Sequence record: PZ386978.1
Direction: 5' to 3' (one strand)
From: a phage
DNA: 64,000 nt
Part shown: positions 21,548-62,554 of the stretch, in pieces
Layout: each line of letters begins with the position of its first letter
How positions within the stretch are numbered: the first letter of the stretch is position 1
Position numbers and translations under genes: made by a program
Notes under the pieces: model-generated
Databases searched by the model: none
Seen by the model: the letters and a program-made list of their open reading frames with translations, nothing else
What the model was told of the DNA's origin: nothing

Positions 21548-22744
21548 ATGAACAAAGTACAGATTATTAAAAAGAACGGCTCACTCGAAGAACCTGATAT
21601 CAAAAAAGTTTTAGCAGCAGTCACAAAGTCAGCTAATAGGGTTGGGTATAAAGAACTCCCACCAGATGTTACCCAAGCTCTTGAGTCAGCATTTATGAGG
21701 ATTCTGGTAAAATCCACTAAGCAGAATAATTTACTCATTTCAGTAAATGATATTCACAGTATTGTTGAGGGTGCTTTGGCAGAAGTCAATCACGAGATTT
21801 ATGAGTCTTACTCAACATATAGAAATTACCGTAAAGAAGTTGCTCAGAATTGGGATGAGCTTTATCAGAAGACCAAAGATACACTCTTCTTAGGTGACCG
21901 AGAAAATGCTAATTTTGACAGCAGTTTAATTTCTACAAAAGGTTCAATTATTCGTGGTTATCTGACTAAAGAAATCTTTAAACAGTACCATTTAACACCA
22001 GAGGAACTTGAAGCCATTGAAAAAGGGTTTATCTATATCCATGATTTAAGAGACCTAATTTTTGGTGGTATCAACTGTTGCCTGTTTGACATTGGTAAAG
22101 TCCTGAAAGGTGGCTTTGAAATGTCTGGCATTGAATATTGTGAACCAAAGTCTGTGCTGTCGGCCTTACAGGTTATTGGTGACGTAGTTCTTTCAGCAAC
22201 TGCACAGCAATTTGGTGGCTTTACTTTAGCAGAGATTGATAAGGTACTCGTACCGTATGCTAAGAAGTCTCTACGCTATCATGCTGAGAAAGCAGCATCT
22301 TATGGTATTCCTAAAGAACATTACCACAATTATGTCATGGAGCAGTTACAGATTGAGCTAACTCAAGGTTTCCAGTCACTTGAAATGAAACTCAATACTG
22401 TGCCTTGTAGCCGTGGGGATTTTGCATTCACAACTTTGACATTCGGGTTACTTGACTCAGATATGTCCAATGAAGATAACCGACTGCAATATATGATTGC
22501 AAGTACTCTCCTAGATGTTCGTATGAATGGACAAGGTAAGAGCAAGAAGCCTGTTGTATTTCCTAAACTGGTTTATATTTATGACCAGAAGAGACACGAT
22601 GAGAATATCTGTCAAGGACACCTGTACAGTAAAGCTATTGAGTGTTGCTCTAAAGCAATGTATCCAGATTTCTTAAGTGTATCTGGTCATGGTGCTGTAG
22701 CAGAGGCTTTTGAGCGTTCTGGCAAGGTTATTTCACCGATGGGT
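21548..22744 (+). CDS. nrdD: anaerobic ribonucleoside-triphosphate reductase, exon 1
   Basis: Reading frame ends ...ISPMG at an in-frame TAA; continuation found in frame ~740 nt downstream; exon ends with U as expected for a group I 5' splice site. Confidence 0.75.
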
Positions 22745-23486
22745 TAACAAGCTCTATAGCTCATCTAAAACGTGCCTAAACAGGGAAACTCTACAGGTGT
22801 AGACAATCCTGTGCTAAATGATGTACGATGTAAGAAACTATATGACATAGGAGTATTACATGCCAAATTATCATGTTACTGAAGACGGAAGAGTCTTTAG
22901 GAAAAATGGTGTAGAACTTAAGCAGTGGAAATCCAACACTGGGTATATGAAAGTGAGGTTTTACGGTAAGAAGAATCGTGACATGTATGTTCATAGGTTA
23001 GTTGCTGAGAAATATGTACCTAACCCGAACAATCTTCCAATTGTAAAACACAAAGATGATAACAAACTGAATAACCATGCTTCTAACTTAGAATGGGGAA
23101 CTCATTCTGAGAATGTTAAAGAAGGTTATGAAAATGGTTGCTACAAGTTTTGTAAGCGTTCATATGCTGTGAAGGCTACACACAAAGTAACAAAAGAAGT
23201 TATTGTTGCGAACTCGATACGAGAGTTGTCCAAGATGCTTGGGTATAATCGCAAGACTATCTCTTCAATACTGAAGGGTGTAAAAGAATATAATAACTTT
23301 GAACATGAATTTGAATACATCTAAATGCCGAACGACTAACCGTGATGAATGTAGCGGTGTAGGGTCAAGCGACTCGAAATGGTACGCTACTTAGAAATAA
23401 GTAGAAGATATAGTCTGGACTTACTGGCGACAGTAAGCAGCTTGAATAAAGCGGGGTAAGCTTAGCGAACTTACCTGAACAACAAG
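22745..23486 (+). mobile_element. putative group I intron interrupting nrdD, carrying an HNH homing endonuclease ORF
   Basis: Non-coding flanks around ORF 22860..23324; 3' end ...AACAAG ends in G; joining 22744 to 23487 restores ...ISPMG|CRAFLSPYHNEHGEEFYVGRAN... Confidence 0.6.
22860..23324 (+). CDS. HNH homing endonuclease (intron-encoded)
   Basis: 154 aa; motifs YVHRLVAEKY...VKHKDDNKLNNHASNLEWGTHSEN typical of HNH_3 family. Confidence 0.75.
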   Translation: MPNYHVTEDGRVFRKNGVELKQWKSNTGYMKVRFYGKKNRDMYVHRLVAEKYVPNPNNLPIVKHKDDNKLNNHASNLEWGTHSENVKEGYENGCYKFCKRSYAVKATHKVTKEVIVANSIRELSKMLGYNRKTISSILKGVKEYNNFEHEFEYI

Positions 23487-24434
23487 TGTAGAGCATTTTT
23501 ATCACCATACCATAACGAACATGGTGAAGAGTTTTATGTAGGTCGTGCTAATATTGGTGCTGTATCTTTGAACTTACCAATGATTTACCAGTATTCTAAA
23601 GAGAATGGCTTAGATTTCTGGAAAGAGCTTGATAAGTACCTAGAAATGATTCGTAGTTTCCACAAGAAACGCTATGAAATGATTGCCAATATGCCAGCAA
23701 GTTCTAATCCTCTTGCATTTACACAAGGTGGTCTGTACAAAGGAACTAAGAAGCCTACTGACAGGGTTGGTTGGGATATTGTGAAGTCCTTCACAGCTTC
23801 TTTTGGGGTTACTGCGCTTGATGAGCTATCTGTTCTTGCTGAAGGTAAACGACTTCATGAAGTTGGAAGCTATAGTTTTGCATATGATGTTCTGGCATAC
23901 ATCAACATGAAAACTGAAGAGTTTAAGAACGAAGATGGCTTCTTGTATGCGGTATATGGCACTCCAGCAGAATCACTTTGTGGAACTCAGTTAAAACAGT
24001 TCAGAGATATGTTTGGCGTTATTAAAGGTGTCTCTGACAAGGAATACTTTACAAACAGTTTCCATATGAATGTTGCAGCAGACATCTCACCATTTGAGAA
24101 GCAGGACTTAGAAGAACCATTCTTCCATATCTGTAGAGGTGGCAGAATCCAGTATGTCAGGGTAGCTAACCCAGAAAACTTAACAGCACTTAAGAGTTGT
24201 ATTACGAGAGGTATGTTGAAAGGTTTCTATCAGGGACTTAACTTTGACTTAGCAATCTGTGAACATTGTGGTAACAGACCAAAGGCTGATGTTGAAGAAT
24301 GTGAGGTTTGTCATTCACATGACATCTCTGTGATTAACAGGGTGTGCGGGTACTTGTCATTCACAAAAATTAAAGGTCAGTCTCGAATGAATGATGCAAA
24401 AATCGCTGAGATTCGTGACAGGATTTCTATGTAA
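23487..24434 (+). CDS. nrdD: anaerobic ribonucleoside-triphosphate reductase, exon 2
   Basis: C-terminal zinc site CEHCG...CEVCHSH and glycyl-radical motif RVCGYLS; ORF track calls only the portion from 23568. Confidence 0.75.
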   Translation, partial: CRAFLSPYHNEHGEEFYVGRANIGAVSLNLPMIYQYSKENGLDFWKELDKYLEMIRSFHKKRYEMIANMPASSNPLAFTQGGLYKGTKKPTDRVGWDIVKSFTASFGVTALDELSVLAEGKRLHEVGSYSFAYDVLAYINMKTEEFKNEDGFLYAVYGTPAESLCGTQLKQFRDMFGVIKGVSDKEYFTNSFHMNVAADISPFEKQDLEEPFFHICRGGRIQYVRVANPENLTALKSCITRGMLKGFYQGLNFDLAICEHCGNRPKADVEECEVCHSHDISVINRVCGYLSFTKIKGQSRMNDAKIAEIRDRISM

Positions 24435-26907: not shown

Positions 26908-26920
26908 ACAGATACTATAA

Positions 26921-26947
26921 GGGAACTGTAAAGGTTCCCTTTTTTAT
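26921..26947 (+). terminator. intrinsic terminator
   Basis: Hairpin GGGAACTGTAAAGGTTCCC followed by TTTTTTAT. Confidence 0.6.
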
Positions 26948-26959: not shown

Positions 26960-27475
26960 ATGTATCTGTCAAACCTGAAACGTTCGGCTGCAATGTCAGT
27001 TCTAAGACTCAGCTTTGAGGAACGTCAAGAGTTCATTGACTCCCACCAATATGACCCTTCTAACTCGAATCACATGGTTCTTTGGAATCGTGATAGTACT
27101 CGTGAAAGAGCACTATTCCGCTACTACCCACATTACACCGTAGACAACCTGTATGAATGTTTTGTTGTGAAGAACACCATTACAGTACTCAATAAACTTT
27201 GCAGATACACAGGTAGTCAATCCTTCACATTAGGACATCACAAACCTGTTACAAAGGGTGGTGAGCATCACTGTGCAAACTGGTTTATCCAGACTAGACT
27301 TGATAACCAGAGGCAAGGTGATAGTCTTTTAAGTACCCCTAAGATGTCCTATGAAGAGCAAGAGAAATATATCAAAAATAATATGCCAGATGTGCTTGAC
27401 AACAACTATACAGATTTGGCAATATCTCTCCTGTTGAAGTTCGAGACAGTTTATAGGGCAACTTATAATGGCTAA
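26960..27475 (+). CDS. hypothetical protein (weak HNH-like His cluster)
   Basis: 171 aa; segment LGHHKPVTKGGEHHCANW is only loosely HNH-like. Confidence 0.4.
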   Translation: MYLSNLKRSAAMSVLRLSFEERQEFIDSHQYDPSNSNHMVLWNRDSTRERALFRYYPHYTVDNLYECFVVKNTITVLNKLCRYTGSQSFTLGHHKPVTKGGEHHCANWFIQTRLDNQRQGDSLLSTPKMSYEEQEKYIKNNMPDVLDNNYTDLAISLLLKFETVYRATYNG

Positions 27476-27746
27476 AGAGAAGTGGGAGATTTTACCATTA
27501 GTCAGTGAAGGCGGTAATGGTTGTGAAATGTACATGATACGTGGTCATGTTCCAGAACCAATTGCACTTGAGATGGTAAACAACTTTACAGATGGCTCTT
27601 ACAAAGACTTAGGGGAGCCAACTATAAAGCAGCAATGGGTAAAGCCTGTACCAGACAGCACAGGTAACTGTAGTGTACTTTATCACGTTGTAGACCCTGC
27701 AAGATGCAAATCTGCAATGGCAGTAACAAACGTAACTTTTGATTGA
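27468..27746 (+). CDS. hypothetical protein
   Basis: 92 aa ORF. Confidence 0.4.
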   Translation: MAKEKWEILPLVSEGGNGCEMYMIRGHVPEPIALEMVNNFTDGSYKDLGEPTIKQQWVKPVPDSTGNCSVLYHVVDPARCKSAMAVTNVTFD

Positions 27747-27757
27747 GAGAGAAAACT

Positions 27758-28639
27758 ATGAAAACATCTATCCGTGTTACAGTTCATTCACCAACTAAAG
27801 GGACTCATGAAGAAGAGTTTAACATCATCCAATTCCCTTCTGGTGAGATTGGTGGACACTTTTCACCAGAGTTTGTTGATTTCACTGCTTATGCAGCATC
27901 ATCCATCAACAATGTGGTTATGATTGTAAAAGGTTATGATAAGGACACATTGTTTGCTGTGGCACTTGCTAAAGAGGCGGTGGATGACTTAGTACCTCAT
28001 AAGTTTGCTATGAAGACTGTTATCTTTTACTATTTGCCAAATGCACGTTACGACCGTCACATGTTTAAAGGTGATGCAGCAGCTTTGAAAGTGTTTGCAC
28101 AACAGGTTAATGCAATGGGTTTTGATGCAGTCTGTGCAGTTGACCCTCACAGTTACGTTCCAGACAACCTGTTTAACTGCTTCCAGAGTATTCCTCAAAA
28201 GGAGATTGCAGTTCACTATGCAAATGACCCTCTGATTGATTACTTAGTAGCCCCAGATGCAGGTGCTTCTAAGAAGATTGCAGAGACTGCTAAAGAGGTG
28301 GATAAACCATATATCACAATGTCTAAAGTGCGTAACCTTAAGACTGGTGAAATTACTGGTATGCGAATCCTTGATGATGTTGATTTGACAGATAAAACCG
28401 TCATGATTCTGGATGATATCTGTGATGGTGGTCGAACCTTCGTAGAAGCAGCAAAACATCTTCGTGAAGCAGGTGCAAAACGTGTGGAACTTTATGTAAC
28501 ACATGGTATCTTCTCTAAAGATGTTGAAAACCTTCTTGACAACGGTATCGACCATATTTACACTACGAACTCTTTAGGCGAAGCTAAAGACCGTGGTTTA
28601 ACACATTATAGTCAAGTTACTGTAGCAAACCTTGATTGA
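27758..28639 (+). CDS. ribose-phosphate pyrophosphokinase (PRPP synthetase)-like protein
   Basis: Type I PRTase/PRPP-binding loop VMILDDICDGGRTF in C-terminal half; ATG at 27758 preferred over track start 27743. Confidence 0.7.
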   Translation: MKTSIRVTVHSPTKGTHEEEFNIIQFPSGEIGGHFSPEFVDFTAYAASSINNVVMIVKGYDKDTLFAVALAKEAVDDLVPHKFAMKTVIFYYLPNARYDRHMFKGDAAALKVFAQQVNAMGFDAVCAVDPHSYVPDNLFNCFQSIPQKEIAVHYANDPLIDYLVAPDAGASKKIAETAKEVDKPYITMSKVRNLKTGEITGMRILDDVDLTDKTVMILDDICDGGRTFVEAAKHLREAGAKRVELYVTHGIFSKDVENLLDNGIDHIYTTNSLGEAKDRGLTHYSQVTVANLD

Positions 28640-28648
28640 AAGTTTATA

Positions 28649-28669
28649 GGGGCTTAAAAGCCCCATTTT
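28649..28669 (+). terminator. hairpin, possible terminator/attenuator
   Basis: GGGGCTTAAAAGCCCC followed by ATTTT. Confidence 0.4.
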
Positions 28670-28684
28670 GAGAGAGATTAAAAG

Positions 28685-30466
28685 ATGACTAAATCACTTT
28701 ATGCAGTACCAGCAGGTTTAAATGCAGATGCTTACAAGGCATCACATATATATCAGTATCCAGATGCTACGCAATATCTTATGTTGAACCTAACACCACG
28801 TAGCGACAAATGGTTTAACAGCCCCTTAGCAATTGATGGTGTAGTGGCTTTTGGTATTCAACGTTTCGTTAAAGATTACTTGATAGACCATTGGAATGCC
28901 ACCTTCTTTGAACGTGACAAAAAAGAAGCAATTGACGAAATCTTAGAAGTCATGAATGGTGTTCTGGGTAAAGATGCTATCGGTCGAGAGCATTGGGAAG
29001 CACTTCACGACTTAGGTTATCTACCAGTTGAAGTATACGCTGTAGAAGAAGGTACAGTTGTCCCTATGCGTGTCCCAATGATTGTCTTCCAGAACACTGT
29101 TTCAGGTTTCCATTGGGTAGCAGGTTATCTGGAAGATGCTTTCTCTGCTGAGATTTGGAAGGCTTGTACCATTGCAACTATTGCATTGCATTATAAACGC
29201 ATCTGTAAGAAGTGGGCTGACCTTACTTGTGACAATGACTTACATTTACCTTATCAGTGCCATGACTTTGCTATGCGTGGTATGTCCGGCTTTACTGATG
29301 ACGCATTTAACGCTGTAGGTCACTTAACCAGCTTTAAAGGAACTGATAGCTTCCCTGCTGTATACACGGCTAAACGCATCTATGGACAGTCTTACCCAAT
29401 TTCTGATATTGGTAGTTCTGTACCAGCCACTGAACACTCTGTAATGTGTGCAAACATTGCTTGGGAAGGTGGTAATGAATTGATTGAAGAGGAAAGACGC
29501 TTTAAAGGTGAATTACAAACCTTCCGTCGCTTCTTAACAGAAACTTACCCAACTGGTATTGCAAGTATTGTTTCAGACACTTATAACTTCTGGAGAACTG
29601 TGTCAGAAATCTTACCAGCACTTCGCAAAGAGATTATGGAACGTGACGGTAAACTGGTAATTCGTCCTGACTCTGGAGACCCTGTACACATTGTCACAGG
29701 TTATAAAGCAATCCACTTAGAGTGTGCTAAAAAGGCTTATTATGAGCACCTAAGCAAGCTGGAAGCCAGTGACACAATGCTGAATGCTGTTCTGAACATG
29801 AAGCTTGAAAACATCAGCTATGGTATTGCTGGATGGCTACTGTCAGAAGGCTACGAAATGGTTGTTGACCGAGAAGACTTTGAAGTTGCTGATACAGTGA
29901 TGTTGAAAAATGCTTATATGGTTGGCTCTGCAAACGTTGTAACACGTCCTGTAGCAGAGATTGATGGAGCTATTAAGACACTGTACAACATCTTTGGAGG
30001 AACTATTAACTCGAAAGGGTTTAAGGTACTGGATGAGCACATCGGCCTTATCTATGGTGACTCTATCACACTGGAACGTGCAAACGAAATCCTGAAGCGT
30101 CTGTATGAAATGGGTTTTGCAAGCTCTAACGTAGTGTTTGGCGTAGGCTCTTACACTTACCAGTACATGACTCGTGACACCTTTGCATTTGCTGTTAAAG
30201 CAACTCTTGCAAGCATTGGTGGTAAAGAGATTATGCTTGCAAAAGACCCTAAAACAGATAGTGGTGTTAAGAAGTCTGCTTTTGGTGGTGTAGCACCTAT
30301 GTGGGATGGTGATAAGTTGAAAGCTGTAGATGGCTACGGATTCCAGAGCTTTGCAGATGCACTTGAACATCCAGCTTGTGCTTTACGTTTAGTCTTTAGT
30401 GACTCTGAGCAGTACGGTTACACATCTCTTGGTGATATTCGAAATAATATTGACAAGCAGCTTTAA
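28685..30466 (+). CDS. nicotinamide phosphoribosyltransferase (NAMPT)-like protein
   Basis: 593 aa; overall NAMPT-like by eye, immediately downstream of the PRPP-synthetase-like gene. Confidence 0.7.
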   Translation: MTKSLYAVPAGLNADAYKASHIYQYPDATQYLMLNLTPRSDKWFNSPLAIDGVVAFGIQRFVKDYLIDHWNATFFERDKKEAIDEILEVMNGVLGKDAIGREHWEALHDLGYLPVEVYAVEEGTVVPMRVPMIVFQNTVSGFHWVAGYLEDAFSAEIWKACTIATIALHYKRICKKWADLTCDNDLHLPYQCHDFAMRGMSGFTDDAFNAVGHLTSFKGTDSFPAVYTAKRIYGQSYPISDIGSSVPATEHSVMCANIAWEGGNELIEEERRFKGELQTFRRFLTETYPTGIASIVSDTYNFWRTVSEILPALRKEIMERDGKLVIRPDSGDPVHIVTGYKAIHLECAKKAYYEHLSKLEASDTMLNAVLNMKLENISYGIAGWLLSEGYEMVVDREDFEVADTVMLKNAYMVGSANVVTRPVAEIDGAIKTLYNIFGGTINSKGFKVLDEHIGLIYGDSITLERANEILKRLYEMGFASSNVVFGVGSYTYQYMTRDTFAFAVKATLASIGGKEIMLAKDPKTDSGVKKSAFGGVAPMWDGDKLKAVDGYGFQSFADALEHPACALRLVFSDSEQYGYTSLGDIRNNIDKQL

Positions 30467-30480
30467 AAGTATATGATAAG

Positions 30481-30504
30481 AGGCTCCTACGGGAGCCTTT
30501 TTAA
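30481..30504 (+). terminator. intrinsic terminator
   Basis: AGGCTCCTACGGGAGCCT followed by TTTTAA. Confidence 0.6.
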
Positions 30505-37947: not shown

Positions 37948-38733
37948 ATGGGCATTGTAAAAATCATCAATGGTGATATCTTTGCAGCATTTGATAAAGG
38001 TAAGTTTGACGTCATTGGTCACGGTTGCAACTGTATGAATTTAATGGGTGCAGGTATCGCTGACAAGATTTCTAAACTTTACCCAAAAGCATATGAGACC
38101 GATACAGAAGTTTATCTATATGCAGGTGGTATAGGCCACAAACCCTGTGAAAATTTACTGGGTAATTTCTCTGTAGCACGTTTAAAACAAGGTCGCATAG
38201 CTAACCTTTACACTCAACTTAAGACTGGTAAAGATGCCAGATACAGTGCTTTAGAGTCATCTTTGAAACAGCTTAACAGATACTGTGAAGTCAACCAGTT
38301 GAAGAAGGTTGGTCTACCTATGATTGGTGCAGGTATCGGTGGGCTAGACCCTCAAGCCGTCACAGTTATCATTAATCAGGTGATGAAGAGTGTAGATGTG
38401 TATCTTTATGTCTACGAAGGAGAGATGTACCACAAGTTACGCTCAGGTTGGAAGAACTACTGTGAACCAGAATACTTTGCAGGTGTAGTAGTGTTCACTA
38501 ATGATGCAGTTACCCTCTTCAGACGAAGAAAAGGTAAGATACATCAAAGTAACCCTCCGGTTGAAAAGATGTCTCTAAGTAACGCTCTAGTTACCCACCT
38601 GTCGAAGAGCAGTCACAGGATTGCAGTAACATTTGGCAGTGATGCAGATGCTTACATCTATGCAAGAACTGATGAGGATATCGAGACGGTTTTCTCTTCA
38701 CCAGAGCTTACCTTCTTAGACGCAAAGAACTAA
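37948..38733 (+). CDS. macro-domain-like protein (ADP-ribose binding/processing)
   Basis: N-terminal NGDIFAAFDKGKFDVIGHGCNCMNLMGAGIADKI follows the macro-domain pattern GDI...D.IVNAAN...GGGV..AI. Confidence 0.5.
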   Translation: MGIVKIINGDIFAAFDKGKFDVIGHGCNCMNLMGAGIADKISKLYPKAYETDTEVYLYAGGIGHKPCENLLGNFSVARLKQGRIANLYTQLKTGKDARYSALESSLKQLNRYCEVNQLKKVGLPMIGAGIGGLDPQAVTVIINQVMKSVDVYLYVYEGEMYHKLRSGWKNYCEPEYFAGVVVFTNDAVTLFRRRKGKIHQSNPPVEKMSLSNALVTHLSKSSHRIAVTFGSDADAYIYARTDEDIETVFSSPELTFLDAKN

Positions 38734-57983: not shown

Positions 57984-58057
57984 CTCTGTTTAGCTCAGCT
58001 TGGTAGAGCGTTCCGTTTGGGGCGGTAAGGCCGGAGGTTCAAGTCCTCCAACAGAGA
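57984..58057 (+). tRNA. tRNA-Pro (anticodon UGG)
   Basis: Acceptor CTCTGTT/AACAGAG, D-arm GCTC..GAGC, anticodon loop TTTGGGG, T-arm GGAGGTTCAAGTCCTCC, CCA encoded. Confidence 0.7.
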
Positions 58058-58067
58058 CCAAATTAAT

Positions 58068-58142
58068 GTTCCAGTAGACAAAATGGTATAGTCACCACTC
58101 TTTCAAAGTGGATATTTGAGGGTTCAAATCCCTTCTGGAACG
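58068..58142 (+). tRNA. tRNA-Glu (anticodon UUC)
   Basis: Acceptor GTTCCAG/CTGGAAC, anticodon stem CCACT/AGTGG with loop CTTTCAA, T-loop TTCAAAT, CCA encoded. Confidence 0.7.
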
Positions 58143-58152
58143 CCAGTTTTGA

Positions 58153-58226
58153 CAGAAGACCAATTACAGCAAACTTAATCTTATTCATCTGAAGGTAAAT
58201 CGGACAAAGAAGAGATTTGGTCTGGT
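58153..58226 (+). ncRNA. conserved stem-closed element, copy 1
   Basis: CAGAAGACCAATTACAGCAA...ATTTGGTCTGG; stem AGACCAA/TTGGTCT. Confidence 0.4.
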
Positions 58227-58237
58227 CATTAAGAATT

Positions 58238-58310
58238 GCGGGTATAGAGAAAGGGCGTCTCACATGTCTCATTAGCATGGTATCGGCAGGTTCGACTCCT
58301 GCACCCGCCT
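58238..58310 (+). tRNA. tRNA-Met family (anticodon CAU; initiator, elongator or Ile-lysidine undetermined)
   Basis: D-stem GAGA/TCTC, anticodon stem CATGT/GCATG with loop CTCATTA, T-arm GCAGGTTCGACTCCTGC; acceptor boundary ambiguous by 1 nt. Confidence 0.6.
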
Positions 58311-58317
58311 CCAAATT

Positions 58318-58384
58318 TACAGAAGACCGTTTACAGCAATATTTATTAAATTTTTAGCGGAAAAATTGAAAGATACGGTCTGGT
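58318..58384 (+). ncRNA. conserved stem-closed element, copy 2
   Basis: CAGAAGACCGTTTACAGCAA...ATACGGTCTGG; stem AGACCGT/ACGGTCT (compensatory to copy 1). Confidence 0.4.
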
Positions 58385-58396
58385 AATACTAAACAT

Positions 58397-58470
58397 GGTT
58401 AGGAAGCACATAAGGTATGTGCGGTCGCCTGTTAAGCGAATGGCACAGGGTTCGAATCCCTGACTAACCG
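58397..58470 (+). tRNA. tRNA-Asn (anticodon GUU)
   Basis: Acceptor GGTTAGG/ACTAACC, D-stem GCAC/GTGC, anticodon loop CTGTTAA, T-arm CAGGGTTCGAATCCCTG, CCA encoded. Confidence 0.7.
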
Positions 58471-58542
58471 CCAAATTTAGGAGAGAAGCGATTGCTCACC
58501 GATTTGTAAGGTGCAAGTCCTTAGCCTGAATAGAAATTAAAT

Positions 58543-58627
58543 GTGTCGTTATCCCGTAGATGGTAGCGGTGGGGACTGTAAATCCCTTGTCATTGAGACT
58601 CGGTAGGTTCGACTCCTACACGGCACA
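58543..58627 (+). tRNA. tRNA-Tyr (anticodon GUA), long variable arm
   Basis: 85 nt; acceptor GTGTCGT/ACGGCAC, anticodon loop CTGTAAA, long variable arm, T-arm GTAGGTTCGACTCCTAC, CCA encoded. Confidence 0.65.
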
Positions 58628-58635
58628 CCAATAAA

Positions 58636-58710
58636 GGTTATGTAGTTTAATTTGGTTAAAATACTCCCCTGTCACGGGAGATGATGAGGGTTCAAATCCA
58701 TTCGTAACCG
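58636..58710 (+). tRNA. tRNA-Asp (anticodon GUC)
   Basis: Acceptor GGTTATG/CGTAACC, anticodon stem CTCCC/GGGAG with loop CTGTCAC, T-loop TTCAAAT, CCA encoded. Confidence 0.65.
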
Positions 58711-58773
58711 CCAATTTTGAGAGGGCTATTTAGCCCCTCCCTTAAAGAGTTCTTACGAGTATTCTTTAAAGGA

Positions 58774-58849
58774 GCAGAAGACCAAATACAGCAAGTTACT
58801 TAAAATTTCAAGCCAATTTAATTTTGAAAAATTTAAAACTTGGTCTGGC
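58774..58849 (+). ncRNA. conserved stem-closed element, copy 3
   Basis: CAGAAGACCAAATACAGCAA...CTTGGTCTGG; stem AGACCAA/TTGGTCT. Confidence 0.4.
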
Positions 58850-58860
58850 TCAACAAATTT

Positions 58861-58993
58861 ACAGAAGACCGTTTACAGCAAAACTTAAACAATCTATTTC
58901 TCGGTAAAGAAAAGGCGAAGGTTCGATTCCTTCACTCGGCAGATGTCGAGTTGGTGTAATGGTAGCACTTAAGATGATAAACAACGGTCTGGT
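58861..58993 (+). ncRNA. conserved stem-closed element, copy 4, with an embedded permuted tRNA-like segment
   Basis: CAGAAGACCGTTTACAGCAA...AACGGTCTGG; interior has T-arm GAAGGTTCGATTCCTTC + ACTCGGC directly followed by GTCGAGT + D-arm-like GGTGTAATGGTAGCAC. Confidence 0.4.
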
Positions 58994-59136
58994 AATTATC
59001 TTTGTAGATAAGTTATTAAGCTTACCTGTGAGTATGCGACCACAAAGGGTGAAGGGTAAATTCTAGATTTAAACCCAAAAAGGCACATCGCTACAGACCT
59101 TAAGCAAGTCTGGGTAGCTTATCTACAAAGATAATT
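58994..59136 (+). repeat. 19 bp perfect inverted repeat enclosing ~105 nt
   Basis: AATTATCTTTGTAGATAAG at 58994-59012 and its exact reverse complement CTTATCTACAAAGATAATT at 59118-59136. Confidence 0.6.
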
Positions 59137-59140
59137 TAAT

Positions 59141-59213
59141 GGAAGTGTAGCAGAATGGTGATGCGGCAGACTTTTAATCTGACAGGCGATGGGTTCGAAT
59201 CCCTCCACTTCTA
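59141..59213 (+). tRNA. tRNA-Lys (anticodon UUU)
   Basis: Acceptor GGAAGTG/CACTTCT, anticodon loop CTTTTAA, T-loop TTCGAAT, CCA encoded; paralogue of tRNA at 60730. Confidence 0.6.
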
Positions 59214-59220
59214 CCAATAT

Positions 59221-59294
59221 GGTTCAGTCGCAGATAAGGTAATGCAAGGGTCTCATAAGCCCTATGAATGTGGGTTCGATTCCCATCTGAACCT
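59221..59294 (+). tRNA. tRNA-Met family, second copy (anticodon CAU)
   Basis: Acceptor GGTTCAG/CTGAACC, anticodon stem AGGGT/GCCCT with loop CTCATAA, T-loop TTCGATT, CCA encoded. Confidence 0.65.
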
Positions 59295-59298
59295 CCAA

Positions 59299-59371
59299 GC
59301 TGGTATAGTTAAGAAGGTTATAACACTCCCCTGATAAGGGAACATCGGTGGTTCGATTCCACCTACCAGTA
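59299..59371 (+). tRNA. tRNA-Ile (anticodon GAU)
   Basis: Acceptor GCTGGTA/TACCAGT, D-stem GTTA/TAAC, anticodon loop CTGATAA, T-arm GGTGGTTCGATTCCACC, CCA encoded. Confidence 0.7.
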
Positions 59372-59389
59372 CCAATTTCAATAAAGTTG

Positions 59390-59418
59390 TTGACATTGAG
59401 ATGTGACTACTTTATAGT
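59390..59418 (+). promoter_or_regulatory. sigma70-like promoter inside tRNA cluster
   Basis: TTGACA 59390-59395, 17 nt spacer, TATAGT 59413-59418. Confidence 0.55.
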
Positions 59419-59622
59419 AACCTTAGTTTTCGTTGCGTAGCGTCTATTTTGCAAATTTAAAATAAATGCAAACGACAATGTTTTTCTGGCAGTAGCTTGA
59501 TAGGCTAAACACCAGTGAGGTCTTCCAATCCCTCATCAAAGAATTTGGCGTACTAGCCCACGGTATGATTAATAAGGTGGGCATCTTTAAGGGCTTTCTA
59601 AGAGAGTCTTTAAAGATAATTA

Positions 59623-59701
59623 CGGGGCGTATCTCAGCTGTCTTCTAAACAGCCGTTAATCGAGTAAGTGGAGTATGCGGGTTCGAGTCCTGCCGCCTCG
59701 A
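59623..59701 (+). ncRNA. atypical tRNA-like gene (acceptor + T-arm + anticodon-like hairpin with loop CTTCTAA; no recognisable D-arm)
   Basis: Acceptor CGGGGCG/CGCCTCG, T-arm GCGGGTTCGAGTCCTGC, hairpin GCTGT-CTTCTAA-ACAGC (would read UCU, Arg), 22 nt extra segment, CCA encoded. Confidence 0.4.
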
Positions 59702-59718
59702 CCAATTTTGGAGAAATC

Positions 59719-60066
59719 ATGAAAACTTGTATTAGGTGCAAACTCAGCAAGGATGAAAATGATTTCTACATGAAAGATGGTAGGAGAACTCATTCATACT
59801 GTAAAAAGTGTGTTAATGAGCAAACCATAGAAAGACAAAGAGCACTTAAACTCTCAGCTATTGAGTACAAAGGTGGGGTTTGTCACGATTGTGGTAAAAA
59901 GTATCATCCAGCAGTGTATGACTTCCATCATTTGAATCCTTCAGATAAAGATTTTAACATTGGTCATAGGAAAAGCCTTAAGTTCTCTCAAGAACTAAAA
60001 GATGAACTTGACAAATGTGTTTTGCTATGTTCAAATTGCCATAGGGTAAGACATGCAAAGTATTAG
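59719..60066 (+). CDS. HNH endonuclease within tRNA cluster
   Basis: Start at MKTCIRCK with GGAG SD (track start 59668 overlaps the upstream tRNA-like gene); zinc-finger cysteines and HNH core DFHHLNP...CSNCHRVRH. Confidence 0.7.
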   Translation: MKTCIRCKLSKDENDFYMKDGRRTHSYCKKCVNEQTIERQRALKLSAIEYKGGVCHDCGKKYHPAVYDFHHLNPSDKDFNIGHRKSLKFSQELKDELDKCVLLCSNCHRVRHAKY

Positions 60067-60203
60067 TTAGCAGATTACTTAGACGACCTTAGCGGGTCTC
60101 CGTGTAGGGAGGTGGTCTGTATCTCATGTTTTCCAGAACATGTAAATAATCTGAGAAGGGGCTTTACAGTGTTGAGATAATACGGTAAGCTTCGAATTAT
60201 AGT

Positions 60204-60283
60204 GTGGGACGATGTTAAGACTCTAAGGCATGAGCAACGGCCTCCAAAACCGTTTCAAAGGGGTTCAACTCCTCCGTCCCATG
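60204..60283 (+). tRNA. tRNA-Trp (anticodon CCA), 5' boundary uncertain
   Basis: Anticodon loop CTCCAAA, T-loop TTCAACT, acceptor GTGGGAC/GTCCCAT, CCA encoded; D-region longer than canonical. Confidence 0.5.
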
Positions 60284-60299
60284 CCAAAGTCTTATTAGG

Positions 60300-60387
60300 G
60301 GTAGGTAGCGGCTAATGGCAGCCAAACAGTCTTGAAAACTGTTGCCACTGTAGAGATACGGTGAGGGTTCGACTCCTTTACTTACCG
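60300..60387 (+). tRNA. tRNA-Ser (anticodon UGA), long variable arm
   Basis: 88 nt; acceptor GGTAGGT/ACTTACC, anticodon stem ACAGT/ACTGT with loop CTTGAAA, long variable arm, T-loop TTCGACT. Confidence 0.65.
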
Positions 60388-60644
60388 CCTAATAAGATTT
60401 AAAGCCAAGCTTCATTCGGATGTTGCTTTGGTATCACTCGTGTATTGTCGTACACACTGATAAAACACTTAGTAGGTGTCACGGAGAAGAGATAATATCA
60501 AGCTCTCCAAAGGTTCTAGTCACCGGATTAAACAAGACTATGCAAAGACCTTTTTAGGTCTTTTTAGAGGGCTTCTAAGGTTATTACAGCTTGTTGTGGA
60601 ACCTTGTTGCTTAGGTTCTTAGAAGTTCTCTAAAAAGATTTAAT

Positions 60645-60719
60645 GGGAGATTGATGGTAATTGGTAAACCTATCTCGCTTAGAACGAGATGTTTGAGGGT
60701 TCGAATCCCTTGTCTCCTA
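60645..60719 (+). tRNA. tRNA with anticodon UAG (Leu by anticodon) but short variable arm
   Basis: Anticodon stem TCTCG/CGAGA with loop CTTAGAA, T-arm GAGGGTTCGAATCCCTT, acceptor GGGAGAT/GTCTCCT, CCA encoded; 5 nt variable loop. Confidence 0.5.
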
Positions 60720-60729
60720 CCAAATTAAT

Positions 60730-60802
60730 GCAGGTGTAGCAAAATGGTTATGCGGCTGACTCTTAATCAGTAAGACGATGGGTTCAATTCCCTCCACCTG
60801 TA
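60730..60802 (+). tRNA. tRNA-Lys (anticodon CUU)
   Basis: Acceptor GCAGGTG/CACCTGT, anticodon loop CTCTTAA, T-loop TTCAATT, CCA encoded. Confidence 0.6.
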
Positions 60803-60811
60803 CCAGACATT

Positions 60812-60884
60812 GGGGTCATAGTTTATATGGTTAAAATTCGAGTTTTGCAAACTTGGGAACTGAGTTCAATTCTCAGTGACTCCA
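60812..60884 (+). tRNA. tRNA-Ala (anticodon UGC)
   Basis: Acceptor GGGGTCA/TGACTCC, anticodon loop TTTGCAA, T-arm CTGAGTTCAATTCTCAG, CCA encoded. Confidence 0.65.
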
Positions 60885-60893
60885 CCAATTAGT

Positions 60894-60965
60894 GCATCCA
60901 TAGTTTAAACGGGAAAATTACAGTCTTCCAAACTGAGGTTGAGGGTTCGATTCCCTCTGGATGCT
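60894..60965 (+). tRNA. tRNA-Gly (anticodon UCC)
   Basis: Acceptor GCATCCA/TGGATGC, anticodon loop CTTCCAA, T-arm GAGGGTTCGATTCCCTC, CCA encoded. Confidence 0.7.
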
Positions 60966-60975
60966 CCAAATTAAT

Positions 60976-61048
60976 GCTCCTATCGTATAATCGGCTATTA
61001 CGGTTGCCTTGTAAGCAACTTATCAGGGTTCGAATCCTTGTGGGAGCA
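60976..61048 (+). tRNA. tRNA-Thr (anticodon UGU)
   Basis: Acceptor GCTCCTA/TGGGAGC, anticodon stem GTTGC/GCAAC with loop CTTGTAA, T-loop TTCGAAT, CCA encoded. Confidence 0.7.
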
Positions 61049-61054
61049 CCAATT

Positions 61055-61143
61055 CAGAGGTCAAGTGAAAGACCGCTGGTGTCAACTGAAGACCGTAACA
61101 AATTCCACGGAGTTGAGTTAGCGGCACAACTTCAGACCTCTTT
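61055..61143 (+). ncRNA. large hairpin element between tRNAs
   Basis: Outer stem CAGAGGTC / GACCTCTT enclosing ~75 nt that contains CTGAAGACCGTAACAA (related to the CAGAAGACC elements) and inner stem TGAAG/CTTCA. Confidence 0.35.
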
Positions 61144-61146
61144 CAT

Positions 61147-61218
61147 ACTCGCTTAGTTTATATGGTAAAACATCACCCTTACAAGATGAAGAAAAAGGTT
61201 CAAGTCCTTTAGTGAGTA
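61147..61218 (+). tRNA. tRNA-Val (anticodon UAC)
   Basis: Acceptor ACTCGCT/AGTGAGT, D-stem GTTT/AAAC, anticodon loop CTTACAA, T-arm AAAGGTTCAAGTCCTTT, CCA encoded. Confidence 0.65.
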
Positions 61219-61222
61219 CCAT

Positions 61223-61297
61223 GTTCCAGTATCCCAATTGGCAGAGGATGCAAGCTCAAACCTTGTATTAGTGACGGTTCGAATCCGTCTTGGAACA
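61223..61297 (+). tRNA. tRNA with anticodon CAA (Leu by anticodon) but short variable arm
   Basis: Acceptor GTTCCAG/TTGGAAC, anticodon stem GCAAG/CTTGT with loop CTCAAAC, T-arm GACGGTTCGAATCCGTC, 75 nt, CCA encoded. Confidence 0.5.
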
Positions 61298-61305
61298 CCA
61301 ATTTT

Positions 61306-61378
61306 GCAGGATTAGTTCAAATGGATAGAGCAACAGTCTACGAAACTGTTAATAGGGGTTCGAATCCCTTATCCTGCG
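61306..61378 (+). tRNA. tRNA-Arg (anticodon ACG)
   Basis: Acceptor GCAGGAT/ATCCTGC, anticodon stem ACAGT/ACTGT with loop CTACGAA, T-loop TTCGAAT, CCA encoded. Confidence 0.7.
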
Positions 61379-61399
61379 CCAGATAAGCAAGAGGAATTT

Positions 61400-61642
61400 A
61401 TGCAAACATTAACCGTCGTTGAACATGAAAATTCCAATAGTATTGAGTTTGTAAGGGTTCCCACTATAGATACCCACATTTTCTTAAAAGTCGGATGGGA
61501 ATGCGACCCAATAAAAGTAGAAAGATTTATTGGTCATTGCTTTGGTGGAAGACAACTTAAAAGTGTCAATTTTGAGACAATGTTGCCAGAAAGCTCAGAA
61601 ACAAATAATAATGCTTACCTCCTTACGAGGGTTAGACAATGA
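61400..61642 (+). CDS. hypothetical protein within tRNA cluster
   Basis: 80 aa ORF between tRNA genes; coding status uncertain. Confidence 0.3.
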   Translation: MQTLTVVEHENSNSIEFVRVPTIDTHIFLKVGWECDPIKVERFIGHCFGGRQLKSVNFETMLPESSETNNNAYLLTRVRQ

Positions 61643-62196
61643 GATACTTAAAATATGCTTCATGGATTTTCTTAGCTTTACTAGACCCAATTGCAGCAAT
61701 CCTAGCAGTTATCTTAGCACCTTTCGTAGTTCCATTCTACAGTGAGAAGAAAGGGCATCTACCTTTTGGATTCAGATGGATGGAGACCTATGACAACCCA
61801 ATTGATGGTGACGAAGGTCACGTTAAAAGATGGGCTAAGATTAGAAAGATTGGTAAGCTAGGTGTCTACATGCAGAGAGTCGGATGGCTATGGAGAAACA
61901 AAGCTTATAACTTCTCTTACCATGTATTAGGAAGAGATGTAAAAGATGTCACTAAGTGGAAAGGTAATATCAACGTAAGTTCTGACCCTGAAGATAATCA
62001 GACAGGTTATCTCCTAATGTGGAACAACAATGCTTGGGGATTATTTGCTTTTATTCCGTCAATTAAAGTCTTTGGTAAACAGTTTTACTGGAGAATTTAT
62101 GTTGGATGGAAACTAAAAAGTGTTGTCCCAGAAGAAAGAGCATTCTCAAGGGAAAGAGTTATGTTGGCATTCTTTATTCATCCACTGAGAAAGTAA
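61639..62196 (+). CDS. hypothetical membrane protein within tRNA cluster
   Basis: 185 aa; N-terminal hydrophobic helices IFLALLDPIAAILAVILAPFVVPF; Trp-rich. Confidence 0.45.
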   Translation: MRYLKYASWIFLALLDPIAAILAVILAPFVVPFYSEKKGHLPFGFRWMETYDNPIDGDEGHVKRWAKIRKIGKLGVYMQRVGWLWRNKAYNFSYHVLGRDVKDVTKWKGNINVSSDPEDNQTGYLLMWNNNAWGLFAFIPSIKVFGKQFYWRIYVGWKLKSVVPEERAFSRERVMLAFFIHPLRK

Positions 62197-62204
62197 AGAT
62201 TTAA

Positions 62205-62277
62205 AGGGGATTAGTTTACAAGGTTAAAACCTCGGTCTTTGAAATCGAAGAAGTTGGTTCAATTCCAACATCCCCCG
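62205..62277 (+). tRNA. tRNA-Gln (anticodon UUG)
   Basis: D-stem GTTT/AAAC, anticodon loop CTTTGAA, T-arm GTTGGTTCAATTCCAAC, acceptor 3' ATCCCCC, CCA encoded. Confidence 0.65.
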
Positions 62278-62282
62278 CCAAT

Positions 62283-62358
62283 GCTCCATTACTCCAATTG
62301 GCAGAGAGGCCAGACTTAAAATCTGTGTTATGTATCGGTTCGAATCCGATATGGAGTA
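62283..62358 (+). tRNA. tRNA with anticodon UAA (Leu by anticodon) but short variable arm
   Basis: Acceptor GCTCCAT/ATGGAGT, anticodon loop CTTAAAA, T-arm ATCGGTTCGAATCCGAT, 76 nt, CCA encoded. Confidence 0.5.
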
Positions 62359-62366
62359 CCAAATTT

Positions 62367-62439: not shown

Positions 62440-62473
62440 CCACTTCTAAGGGTTCTTACGAGAGTCCTTAAAT

Positions 62474-62546: not shown

Positions 62547-62554
62547 CCAATTTA

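What the first reader, a model, noticed from the sequence alone, without database searches (positions are those of the whole stretch)
27758..30466. PRPP-synthetase-like plus NAMPT-like gene pair: candidate phage NAD+ reconstitution module
Two adjacent co-directional genes encode a ribose-phosphate pyrophosphokinase-like protein (PRPP-binding loop VMILDDICDGGRT) and a 593 aa NAMPT-like protein, bracketed by terminators. Phages are reported to carry such pairs to rebuild NAD+ after host NADase-based immunity, using either ADP-ribose (a NARP1-type route, as I recall the name) or PRPP as substrate. The NAMPT-like protein is about 100 aa longer than typical NAMPT, which may matter for substrate choice. 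A macro-domain-like gene at 37948 is consistent with an ADP-ribose/NAD theme.
Basis: partly seen in the sequence, partly recalled or inferred. Interest (0 to 1): 0.7.

Follow-up and report, generated by a model that had tools for sequence, protein, structure and literature searches.

The report
Known phage NAD+ rebuilding operon (NARP1)

Summary
The gene pair is real. A 293-aa Prs-like gene (27758-28639) and a 593-aa NAMPT-like gene (28685-30466) lie on the + strand, 45 nt apart.

The window is a Felixounavirus genome (258 phage records match, best 96%). The two proteins are 80% and 98% identical, at equal length and spacing, to bas63_0079 and bas63_0080 of phage Bas63. NARP1 was discovered in that operon: Adps makes ADPR-PP from ADP-ribose and ATP, and Namat joins ADPR-PP to nicotinamide to give NAD+.

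The published discriminating features are present:
- Namat selectivity-clamp motif GSYTYQYMTRD, plus K42-W43 in the clamp loop.
- Catalytic H251 and R327 in Namat.
- In Adps, K190, R97, H131, D167 and the DDICD loop.

The nearest solved structure is Namat (TM 0.95).

The extra ~100 aa is mainly an 85-aa folded subdomain with no fold match. It sits in a loop that carries other insertions in other Namat lineages. Namats without it already prefer ADPR-PP, so it does not set substrate choice.

"Bracketed by terminators" holds only downstream. The macro gene is real and belongs to the same phage family as the NARP1-associated phosphatase Adpp. It lies 7.5 kb away, and the family also occurs in T4-like phages, so the link is unproven.

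Verdict: already known, low interest.

The parts
26919..26941 (+). Upstream terminator-like hairpin followed by a U-run. It is the likely 5' boundary of the transcription unit that contains the pair.
   Evidence: 9-bp stem then TTTTTATTTT; dG -15.1 kcal/mol, z -3.3.
26960..27475 (+). 171-aa ORF of unknown function (equivalent of bas63_0077). It lies between the upstream hairpin and adps and has only weak HNH-like similarity.
   Evidence: phrog_3500 E 1e-91 (unknown function) and phrog_2214 HNH E 4e-4. for synteny.
27468..27746 (+). 92-aa ORF of unknown function (equivalent of bas63_0078). It overlaps the previous ORF and ends 11 nt before the adps start.
   Evidence: phrog_4726 E 6e-60, unknown function; no Pfam match.
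27758..28639 (+). adps: Prs-like ADP-ribose pyrophosphokinase (ADPR + ATP -> ADPR-PP + AMP), 293 aa.
   Evidence: 80% identical to bas63_0079. 33% identical to the ICP1 Adps, whose activity and structures are published (PMC13586617). phrog_619 E 4e-98. Pfam Pribosyltran and Pribosyl_synth only, with no N-terminal Prs domain match.
28325..28327 (+). Codon of Adps Lys190. It is the equivalent of ICP1 Adps K185 and SpbetaL1 K162, the lysine essential for ADPR-PP formation.
   Evidence: Alignment A1 and residue mapping; for the mutational data.
28400..28438 (+). VMILDDICDGGRT: the ribose/diphosphate (PP) loop of Adps. D219, D220 and D223 correspond to ICP1 D212, D213 and D216.
   Evidence: residue roles.
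28649..28664 (+). Intergenic GC-rich hairpin (GGGGCU-UAAA-AGCCCC) followed by AUUUUG, between the adps stop and the namat start. It may be an attenuator or an RNA-stability element.
   Evidence: sequence; dG -12.6 kcal/mol, z -2.9. Not called by the terminator scan.
28685..30466 (+). namat: NAMPT-like nicotinamide ADP-ribose transferase (ADPR-PP + nicotinamide -> NAD+ + PPi), 593 aa.
   Evidence: 98% identical to bas63_0080. Best PDB sequence hits 9w5w/9w5x, E 1e-128. AF2 model pLDDT 93. Best fold match is 'Namat' 9w5x/9w5w, TM 0.95.
28802..28813 (+). Selectivity-clamp loop (SCL) residues S40-D41-K42-W43. With Lys at the third position, the fourth residue (Trp43) is the predicted adenine-stacking residue, as described for Bas63 Namat.
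   Evidence: alignment (SpbetaL1 R40 aligns with K42); (rule stated by Lan et al.).
29435..29437 (+). Codon of His251, in the invariant ATEHS motif (residue 251 of the window protein).
   Evidence: Invariant in 43 homologues. Lan et al. state that a catalytic histidine is conserved between Namat and Nampt. That His251 is this residue, and that it corresponds to human NAMPT His247, is from my own knowledge and was not taken from any tool result or paper read.
29705..29959 (+). Lineage-specific inserted subdomain of about 85 aa (aa 341-425) that accounts for most of the extra length. It has an alpha/beta fold and no detectable structural relatives.
30146..30178 (+). Selectivity-clamp helix (SCH) motif GSYTYQYMTRD (aa 488-498). 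[quoted passage not shown]
   Evidence: G488, S489, Y492, T496, R497 and D498 invariant; motif defined in PMC12774641.
30478..30501 (+). Intrinsic-terminator-like hairpin plus UUUUU, 12 nt after the namat stop.
   Evidence: 10-bp stem; dG -16.6 kcal/mol, z -3.2, 0 of 200 shuffles as stable.
37948..38733 (+). Macro-domain protein (261 aa; macro domain roughly aa 1-157 plus about 100 aa of unknown function). It is a possible distal accessory enzyme (ADPR-1''-phosphate phosphatase, Adpp-like). The link to the pair is not shown.
   Evidence: Pfam Macro E 1e-7. 97% identical to bas63_0095. 27% identical over the full macro domain to the in-operon macro of Vibrio phage Pontus, E 3e-13. Both fall in phrog_335. 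The family also occurs in T4-like phages.

Best explanation
The two genes are the NARP1 operon (adps-namat) of a Felix O1-like phage.

Proposed mechanism:
1. A host NADase defence such as SIR2-HerA, type I Thoeris or DSR2 cleaves NAD+ to ADP-ribose and nicotinamide.
2. Adps, which has a Prs fold, transfers the beta-gamma pyrophosphate of ATP to the 1'' position of the distal ribose of ADP-ribose. This gives ADPR-PP.
3. Namat, which has a NAMPT fold, displaces that pyrophosphate with nicotinamide and regenerates NAD+ directly. The host NMN adenylyltransferase steps are not needed.

What is shown here: orthology, gene order, conservation of the catalytic and specificity residues, and fold.

What is shown by others for orthologues and homologues:
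- Deleting the Bas63 operon sensitises the phage to SIR2-HerA and abolishes ADPR-PP in infected cells.
- The enzymology was done with SpbetaL1 and ICP1 proteins.

What is inferred: that this particular allele, and Felixounavirus-type proteins in general, carry out the same two reactions in vitro.
For: Orthology and context:
- The window is a Felixounavirus: megablast of the locus finds 258 phage records, 240 covering most of the query, best 96%.
- Adps is 80% and Namat 98% identical to bas63_0079 and bas63_0080. Lengths (293 and 593 aa) and the 45-nt spacer are identical, and the flanking genes are syntenic.
- Bas63 genes 79-80 are the operon in which NARP1 was found. Its deletion gave about 20-fold fewer plaques on SIR2-HerA cells. 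ADPR-PP appeared only with the wild-type phage plus the defence system. The effect did not depend on host pncC or nadR.

Namat features:
- Signature GSYTYQYMTRD, SCL residues K42-W43, nicotinamide/ribose residues F195, R198, D221, A248, R327 and D329, and His251 in the invariant ATEHS motif are all present.
- AF2 model pLDDT 93.1. The top Foldseek hits are the Namat crystal structures 9w5x/9w5w (TM 0.95, E 3e-52), ahead of HdNadV and mammalian NAMPT.

Adps features:
- It retains the equivalents of ICP1 residues K185, R87, H121, D161, D212, D213 and D216.
- It scores far below every Prs equivalog cut-off (107 against 296 bits) and lacks a Pfam N-terminal Prs domain match.
- The experimentally verified ICP1 Adps behaves the same way.
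Against: - No enzyme from a Felixounavirus has been assayed in vitro. Osterman et al. state that the Bas63 protein did not purify well and used SpbetaL1 homologues.
- The N-terminal ~180 aa of Adps, which carry the ADPR adenine-contact region in ICP1, are a divergent allele relative to Bas63 (58-82% DNA identity in 100-nt bins).
- ICP1 aromatic contacts F18 and F92 align with H17 and M102, although Bas63 has the same residues.
- Namat homologues keep roughly half of NAMPT activity on PRPP in vitro, so some NMN synthesis cannot be excluded.
- Generic HMMs still label both proteins as Prs and nicotinate PRTase.
Confidence: 0.9

Rival explanations
1. Canonical salvage, as the GenBank annotations say. 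The first enzyme is a true PRPP synthetase and the second a true NAMPT/NadV. Together they would make NMN, which host NadR or PncC routes convert to NAD+. On this reading the pair is a general metabolic booster within the phage's nucleotide-metabolism gene block.
For: - Pfam and NCBIfam assign the proteins to Prs and (nicotinate/nicotinamide) PRTase families. Namat even passes the NF006629 equivalog cut-off (470 against 405 bits).
- All related phage records carry these names.
- The genes lie just downstream of the nrdA/B/D/G block (synteny).
- Namat homologues can make NMN from PRPP in vitro.
Against: - Bas63 still overcame SIR2-HerA in a pncC nadR double mutant.
- SpbetaL1 Adps gave no measurable product in the assay reported for the canonical Prs reaction (the figure legend names ribose-5-phosphate plus ATP, the text says PRPP plus ATP), but it made ADPR-PP from ADPR.
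- With both donors present, Namat made only NAD+.
- The window Namat has the adenine clamp, which is absent from NAMPT.
- Adps scores 107 against 296 bits on the best Prs equivalog and lacks the N-terminal Prs Pfam domain.
Confidence: 0.05
2. NARP2-type route. The NAMPT-like enzyme would use host PRPP to make NMN, and a phage NMN adenylyltransferase elsewhere in the genome would finish NAD+. The Prs-like enzyme would simply raise the PRPP supply.
For: - NARP2 (Nampt plus Nmnat, phage KVP40) is a described alternative.
- The window covers only 64 kb of a genome of about 87 kb.
Against: - No Nmnat-like gene is annotated anywhere in the syntenic Bas63 stretch 38-87 kb.
- The immediate neighbours have no Pfam match or fall in unknown-function PHROGs.
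- In the Osterman analysis, 97% of Adps-clade genes pair with Namat as NARP1.
- The clamp motif marks Namat rather than Nampt.
Confidence: 0.03
3. Extended pathway (NARP1-AP in trans). The pair works as NARP1, and the distal macro-domain protein at 37948-38733 also dephosphorylates ADPR-1''-phosphate made by RES-type NADases (aRES). That would feed ADPR into Adps, so the functional module would have three genes split across 7.5 kb.
For: - NARP1-AP with a macro-domain phosphatase (Adpp) is described.
- Vibrio phage Pontus has the arrangement Adps-macro-Namat.
- Its macro aligns full-length with the window macro (27% identity, E 3e-13), and both are in phrog_335 'phosphatase'.
Against: - The macro gene is 7.5 kb and about 13-14 genes downstream, beyond rIIA/rIIB and the spanins.
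- The same macro family is in 2709 phage records, including T4-like phages (tk.4).
- Similarity to Poa1p is marginal (E 0.02-0.03), while OARD1/TARG1 and DarG macros score better. De-ADP-ribosylation of protein or DNA is therefore an equally good guess.
- The extra C-terminal ~100 aa are uncharacterised.
Confidence: 0.25

Closest known systems
NARP1 of Escherichia phage Bas63 (JohannRWettstein), genes 79-80 (Osterman et al. 2024)
   Same: Same genus, gene order, lengths (293 and 593 aa), 45-nt spacer and flanking genes. Namat is 98% and Adps 80% identical. The clamp motif and catalytic residues are the same.
   Different: The N-terminal ~180 aa of Adps are a different allele (58-82% DNA identity). 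By tblastn counts the window allele is the commoner one among Felixounaviruses. Bas63 has one extra small gene (0081) after namat that the window lacks.
NARP1 enzymes with biochemistry and structures: SpbetaL1 Adps/Namat (PDB 9w5w, 9w5x) and Vibrio phage ICP1 Adps
   Same: Same folds and active-site residues. Namat model TM 0.95 to 9w5x, 38% identity. Adps is 33% and Namat 47% identical to the ICP1 proteins. SCH motif GS[YF]TYQY.TRD is shared.
   Different: The window Namat carries an ~85-aa inserted subdomain (aa 341-425) and a 14-aa insertion (aa 259-272) that SpbetaL1 and ICP1 lack. Its SCL uses K42-W43 instead of a stacking Arg. ICP1 Adps residues F18 and F92 are H17 and M102 here.
NARP1-AP (Adps-Adpp-Namat; Vibrio phage Gary; same layout in phage Pontus)
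   Same: Same two core enzymes. The genome also encodes a macro-domain protein of the same PHROG family as the in-operon macro of Pontus.
   Different: The macro gene is not in or next to the operon (7.5 kb away), is 261 aa with an extra C-terminal part against 158 aa, and is only 27% identical. Its activity is unknown.
NARP2 (Nampt + Nmnat, Vibrio phage KVP40) and NARP3 (PnuC-like + NadR-like, phage Bas30)
   Same: Same purpose: phage-encoded restoration of NAD+ against NAD+-depleting defences. NARP2 also uses a NAMPT-fold enzyme.
   Different: NARP2 starts from PRPP and needs an Nmnat. NARP3 imports nicotinamide riboside. Neither partner gene is next to this pair, and the NAMPT-fold enzyme here has the Namat adenine clamp.
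Cellular Prs (PRPP synthetase) and NAMPT/NadV (e.g. Haemophilus ducreyi NadV 9ke8, human NAMPT)
   Same: Same folds and the same type of chemistry (pyrophosphoryl transfer to a ribose C1; nicotinamide displacement of pyrophosphate). Generic HMMs match.
   Different: The acceptor and donor are ADP-ribose derivatives rather than ribose-5-phosphate and PRPP. Adps is far below the Prs equivalog cut-offs. Namat has aromatic residues in the SCH where, according to Lan et al., NAMPT has none.

Membership tests
NARP1 (Adps + Namat) | A Prs-family protein of the phage-specific Adps clade | tested here: met
   80% identical to the founding Adps, bas63_0079, and 33% to the verified ICP1 Adps. phrog_619 E 4e-98, shared with the Pontus Adps. 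No formal tree was built.
NARP1 (Adps + Namat) | Adps catalytic lysine on the beta-hairpin and conserved acceptor-site residues (ICP1 K185, R87, H121, D161, D212, D213, D216) | tested here: met
   K190, R97, H131, D167, D219, D220 and D223 in the window protein. The aromatic adenine contacts F18 and F92 are not conserved (H17 and M102, with F103 adjacent).
NARP1 (Adps + Namat) | [quoted passage not shown] | tested here: met
   GSYTYQYMTRD at aa 488-498.
NARP1 (Adps + Namat) | Namat selectivity-clamp loop supplying an adenine-stacking residue (Arg at position 3, or the residue after a Lys/Tyr) | tested here: met
   S40-D41-K42-W43. K42 aligns with SpbetaL1 R40. Stacking itself was not modelled with ligand.
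NARP1 (Adps + Namat) | The two genes adjacent and co-directional | tested here: met
   45-nt spacer on the same strand.
NARP1 (Adps + Namat) | Enzyme activities: ADPR + ATP -> ADPR-PP; ADPR-PP + nicotinamide -> NAD+ | not testable with these tools
   Shown for SpbetaL1 and ICP1 enzymes, and by in vivo metabolites for Bas63. Not shown for this allele.
NARP1 (Adps + Namat) | Counter-defence phenotype against NAD+-depleting systems | not testable with these tools
   Shown for the Bas63 deletion of genes 79-80 on SIR2-HerA.
Canonical PRPP synthetase (Prs) | Reaches the curated equivalog score and has the N-terminal Prs domain | tested here: not met
   Best Prs equivalog NF002095 scores 107 bits against a cut-off of 296. 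Only the broad TIGR01251 subfamily model is passed (126 against 113). No Pfam Pribosyltran_N match.
Canonical NAMPT/NadV | NAMPT fold and catalytic core, with PRPP as the preferred donor (no adenine clamp) | tested here: inconclusive
   Fold and core are present, and NF006629 is passed at 470 against 405 bits. But the adenine clamp typical of Namat is also present. Donor preference needs an assay.
NARP2 (Nampt + Nmnat) | An NMN adenylyltransferase partner gene | tested here: not met
   None adjacent and none annotated in the syntenic Bas63 region 38-87 kb. The rest of the genome lies outside the window and was not searched.
NARP1-AP (with Adpp) | A macro-domain ADPR-1''-P phosphatase gene within two genes of the NARP1 operon | tested here: not met
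   The only macro gene is at 37948-38733, 7.5 kb downstream. It is homologous to an in-operon macro, but the family is broad.

The most novel reading that the evidence does not exclude
The Felixounavirus module may be more than plain NARP1, in two ways.

(a) The ~85-aa, fold-orphan subdomain inserted in Namat (aa 341-425) is conserved across Ounavirinae-like phages. It sits at a loop where other Namat lineages carry unrelated insertions. It may add a function such as regulation or docking to the Adps hexamer, so that the labile ADPR-PP is handed over directly.

(b) The distal macro-domain protein may serve as an Adpp in trans. In that case these phages would also resist RES-type NADases, although they are not counted among NARP1-AP phages.
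Probability: 0.2. Interest if true: 0.35.

Novelty: already known. Interest (0 to 1): 0.15.

Why it matters
The finding itself adds nothing new. NARP1 was discovered in this very operon of a sister phage, and it has since been dissected structurally.

It is still a useful annotation correction. About 250 Felixounavirus records, and the standard HMMs, label these genes as PRPP synthetase and nicotinamide or nicotinate phosphoribosyltransferase. Phages carrying the pair are expected to resist SIR2-, TIR- and other NADase-based defences, which matters when choosing therapeutic or diagnostic Felix O1-like phages.

Two small open points remain: the role of the lineage-specific Namat insertion, and the role of the distal macro-domain protein.

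Tried and rejected
- **Sequence relation between insertions in different Namat lineages.** None detected (E 0.067).
- **Pfam on the C-terminal ~100 aa of the macro protein and on the two upstream ORFs.** Nothing significant.
- **PADLOC.** Only generic PRTase-domain hits for Adps and a DarG macro hit for the macro protein.
- **The DarG hit as a discriminator.** Rejected, because the in-operon Pontus macro hits DarG too.
- **PDB sequence search for a solved Adps.** Only cellular Prs were returned. The ICP1 Adps structures were not in the copy.
- **Rfam on the whole window.** Only tRNAs. No riboswitch or intron model near the pair or in the split nrdD.
- **Literature search 'Felixounavirus' plus 'NARP1'.** No paper. 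The link goes through the name Bas63.
- **Locating the Bas63 record.** Several accession guesses were needed.
- **Considered and rejected:** that the extra length decides substrate choice; that the pair is bracketed tightly by terminators; that HMM family names indicate the real substrates.
Full report
**Observation.**
- The first protein matches Pfam Pribosyltran (E 4.7e-11) and Pribosyl_synth (E 2.5e-10). It contains VMILDDICDGGRT at aa 215-227.
- The second matches NAPRTase (E 6.5e-35) and NAMPT_N (E 9e-6).
- The gene at 37948-38733 has a Macro domain (E 1e-7).
- These are long ORFs with strong family matches and hundreds of conserved homologues, so chance is not an issue.

**What the window is.** The locus matches 258 phage records by megablast, 240 of them over most of its length and the best at 96%. 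Almost all are Felix O1-like myoviruses of Escherichia, Salmonella, Shigella and Citrobacter. A cluster of 25 tRNA genes and gene-by-gene synteny with Escherichia phage JohannRWettstein agree with a Felixounavirus genome.

**Orthology with the founding NARP1 operon.**
- JohannRWettstein is phage Bas63 of the BASEL collection, a Felixounavirus.
- Its genes bas63_0079 (882 bp) and bas63_0080 (1782 bp) have the same lengths and the same 45-nt spacer as the window genes.
- The proteins are 80% (Adps) and 98% (Namat) identical without gaps.
- Osterman et al. (bioRxiv 10.1101/2024.02.11.579819) discovered NARP1 in this operon:
  - Deleting genes 79-80 made Bas63 about 20-fold less able to plate on SIR2-HerA cells.
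  - NAD+ recovery was lost.
  - The effect did not need host pncC or nadR.
  - ADPR-PP (m/z 720.010) appeared only in defence-positive cells infected by wild-type phage.
- With SpbetaL1 homologues they showed two reactions: Adps makes ADPR-PP from ADPR and ATP, and Namat makes NAD+ from ADPR-PP and nicotinamide. Namat prefers ADPR-PP over PRPP.
- They note that the Bas63 protein itself did not purify well. Felixounavirus-type enzymes therefore have genetic and metabolite evidence but no in vitro enzymology.

**Family-defining features, tested on the window proteins.**

*Namat.* Lan et al. (PMC12774641) define a selectivity clamp.
- The clamp loop has a third residue that is Arg, Lys or Tyr. 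When it is Lys or Tyr, the next residue stacks, and Bas63 is their example.
- The window protein has GSYTYQYMTRD (aa 488-498) and S40-D41-K42-W43. K42 aligns with SpbetaL1 R40.
- The nicotinamide and ribose residues F195, R198, D221, A248, R327 and D329 are conserved, as is His251 in the invariant ATEHS motif.
- An AlphaFold2 model built on 43 homologues has pLDDT 93.1 and pTM 0.91.
- Its best PDB matches are the Namat crystal structures 9w5x/9w5w (TM 0.95 on the target, 38% identity, E 3e-52). These rank ahead of Haemophilus ducreyi NadV and mammalian NAMPT.

*Adps.* Liu et al. (PMC13586617) solved the ICP1 enzyme and list the acceptor and catalytic residues.
- I fetched an ICP1 record, aligned it (33% identity) and mapped the residues.
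- K185, R87, H121, D161, D212, D213 and D216 correspond to K190, R97, H131, D167, D219, D220 and D223 in the window protein.
- The aromatic adenine contacts F18 and F92 are H17 and M102 (F103 adjacent) in both the window and Bas63.

*Generic HMMs cannot make the distinction.*
- The window Adps passes only the broad TIGR01251 model (126 against 113 bits). It is far below every Prs equivalog (107 against 296).
- The verified ICP1 Adps behaves the same way (98 bits).
- Namat even passes the 'nicotinate phosphoribosyltransferase' equivalog (470 against 405).
- This explains the uniform Prs and NAMPT names in GenBank.

**The extra ~100 residues.**
- Relative to SpbetaL1 (491 aa) and ICP1 (488 aa) Namat, the window protein has two insertions: 14 aa at 259-272 and about 85 aa at 341-425.
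- The large one is predicted with high confidence as a compact alpha/beta subdomain, both within the whole model and when folded alone (pLDDT 91.6).
- By tblastn it occurs in 254 phage records, all Felixounavirus and sister genera, falling to 43-52% identity.
- In metagenomic homologues of 590-610 aa it is found down to 45% overall identity.
- The same linker is 18-23 aa in plain Namat. It carries other insertions with no detectable sequence similarity to this one in other lineages, including Bas62 of the BASEL collection. It is therefore an insertion hot spot.
- Enzymes without any insertion already prefer ADPR-PP, and the clamp lies elsewhere in the sequence. The extra length is therefore not what sets substrate choice. 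Its role is unknown, and Lan et al. do not mention it.

**Operon anatomy.**
- A strong hairpin plus U-run follows namat (30478-30501; dG -16.6, z -3.2).
- The nearest upstream terminator-like hairpin is at 26919-26941. The likely transcription unit therefore also holds two small ORFs of unknown function, 26960-27475 and 27468-27746, the equivalents of bas63_0077 and bas63_0078.
- A weaker GC hairpin lies between adps and namat (28649-28664; dG -12.6, z -2.9).
- The consensus scan found no more sites than shuffled sequence would give (3 against 2.6), so these are only suggestive.
- Both genes are preceded by the same TTGAGAGAGA stretch.

**Allelic variation.**
- The window is 93-100% identical to Bas63 on both sides of the locus, but only 58-82% (100-nt bins) across nt 27740-28290, the N-terminal ~180 aa of Adps.
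- tblastn shows two allele groups among relatives: 118 records at 95% or above and 79 at 60-80%. The window carries the commoner one.
- Bas63 also has an extra ~350-bp gene after namat.
- Other relatives carry HNH homing endonuclease genes or extra small ORFs in the locus.

**The macro-domain gene.**
- It is 97% identical to bas63_0095, annotated 'putative phosphatase'.
- Osterman et al. 2026 (bioRxiv 10.64898/2026.01.28.702374) describe NARP1-AP. In it, a macro-domain phosphatase (Adpp) inside the operon converts ADPR-1''-phosphate, the product of aRES NADases, into ADPR for Adps. They counted macro genes only within two genes of NARP1.
- Vibrio phage Pontus has the Adps-macro-Namat layout.
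- Its macro aligns over its full length with the window macro domain (27% identity, E 3e-13), and both fall in phrog_335.
- Against a link:
  - The window gene is 7.5 kb and 13-14 genes downstream.
  - The family is found in 2709 phage records, including T4-like phages (tk.4).
  - Similarity to Poa1p is marginal, while OARD1/TARG1 and DarG macros score better. The Pontus macro also hits DarG.
- An ADP-ribose theme is plausible, but a functional tie to the pair is not established.

**Rivals.**
- Canonical Prs plus NAMPT salvage is contradicted by the Bas63 genetics and metabolites, by the SpbetaL1 enzymology, and by the clamp motif.
- A NARP2-type route lacks the Nmnat partner in the window and in the syntenic Bas63 annotation.
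- A three-gene NARP1-AP acting in trans is possible but unsupported beyond homology.

**Verdict.** The pair is the already published NARP1 operon in its original phage genus, so novelty is nil and interest is low. The only loose ends are the fold-orphan Namat insertion, the divergent Adps N-terminal allele and the distal macro-domain protein.

Noticed in passing
window 29705-29959 (Namat aa 341-425): An ~85-aa, confidently folded alpha/beta subdomain is inserted in a surface linker of Namat. It is restricted to Ounavirinae-like phages and has no fold match in PDB or BFVD. The same linker carries other insertions, with no detectable sequence similarity to this one, in other Namat lineages (e.g. 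Bas62, P0095/P0096). It is not discussed in the Namat structure paper.
   Followed up: yes
window 27740-28290 (N-terminal ~180 aa of Adps): This segment is only 58-82% identical to Bas63 at the DNA level, while both flanks are 93-100% identical. Two allele groups of the Adps N-terminal domain circulate among Felixounaviruses, which looks like mosaic recombination or diversifying selection.
   Followed up: partly
window 28649-28664: A GC-rich hairpin (GGGGCU-UAAA-AGCCCC) followed by AUUUUG lies between the adps stop and the namat start (dG -12.6, z -2.9). It could attenuate transcription or stabilise the RNA and so set the ratio of the two enzymes.
   Followed up: partly
window ~30513, and related phage records: The locus is a hot spot for small insertions in relatives. 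Bas63 has an extra ~350-bp gene after namat. Many Felixounaviruses have an HNH homing endonuclease or ~1.7 kb of small ORFs in or beside the pair. In Salmonella phage ST11 the Namat gene is annotated in two pieces around a homing endonuclease. The window has none of these.
   Followed up: no
window 37948-38733: The macro-domain protein has an uncharacterised C-terminal ~100 aa with no Pfam match. Its macro domain is in the same PHROG as the in-operon Adpp-like macro of Vibrio phage Pontus, and it also resembles DarG and TARG1 macros. The family is present in 2709 phage records, including T4-like tk.4.
   Followed up: partly
window 26960-27475 and 27468-27746: Two overlapping small ORFs of unknown function (phrog_3500, with weak HNH similarity, and phrog_4726) sit between the upstream hairpin and adps. 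They are probably co-transcribed with the NARP1 genes. They were not part of the published Bas63 deletion.
   Followed up: partly
window 21548-24434: Two nrdD-like ORFs (21548-22747 and 23568-24434) are separated by a 154-aa ORF (22860-23324). This matches the Bas63 annotation of a joined nrdD CDS interrupted by a homing endonuclease gene. Rfam at gathering threshold finds no group I intron model there.
   Followed up: partly
window 57984-63556: A cluster of 25 tRNA genes on the + strand, as is typical of Felix O1-like phages.
   Followed up: no
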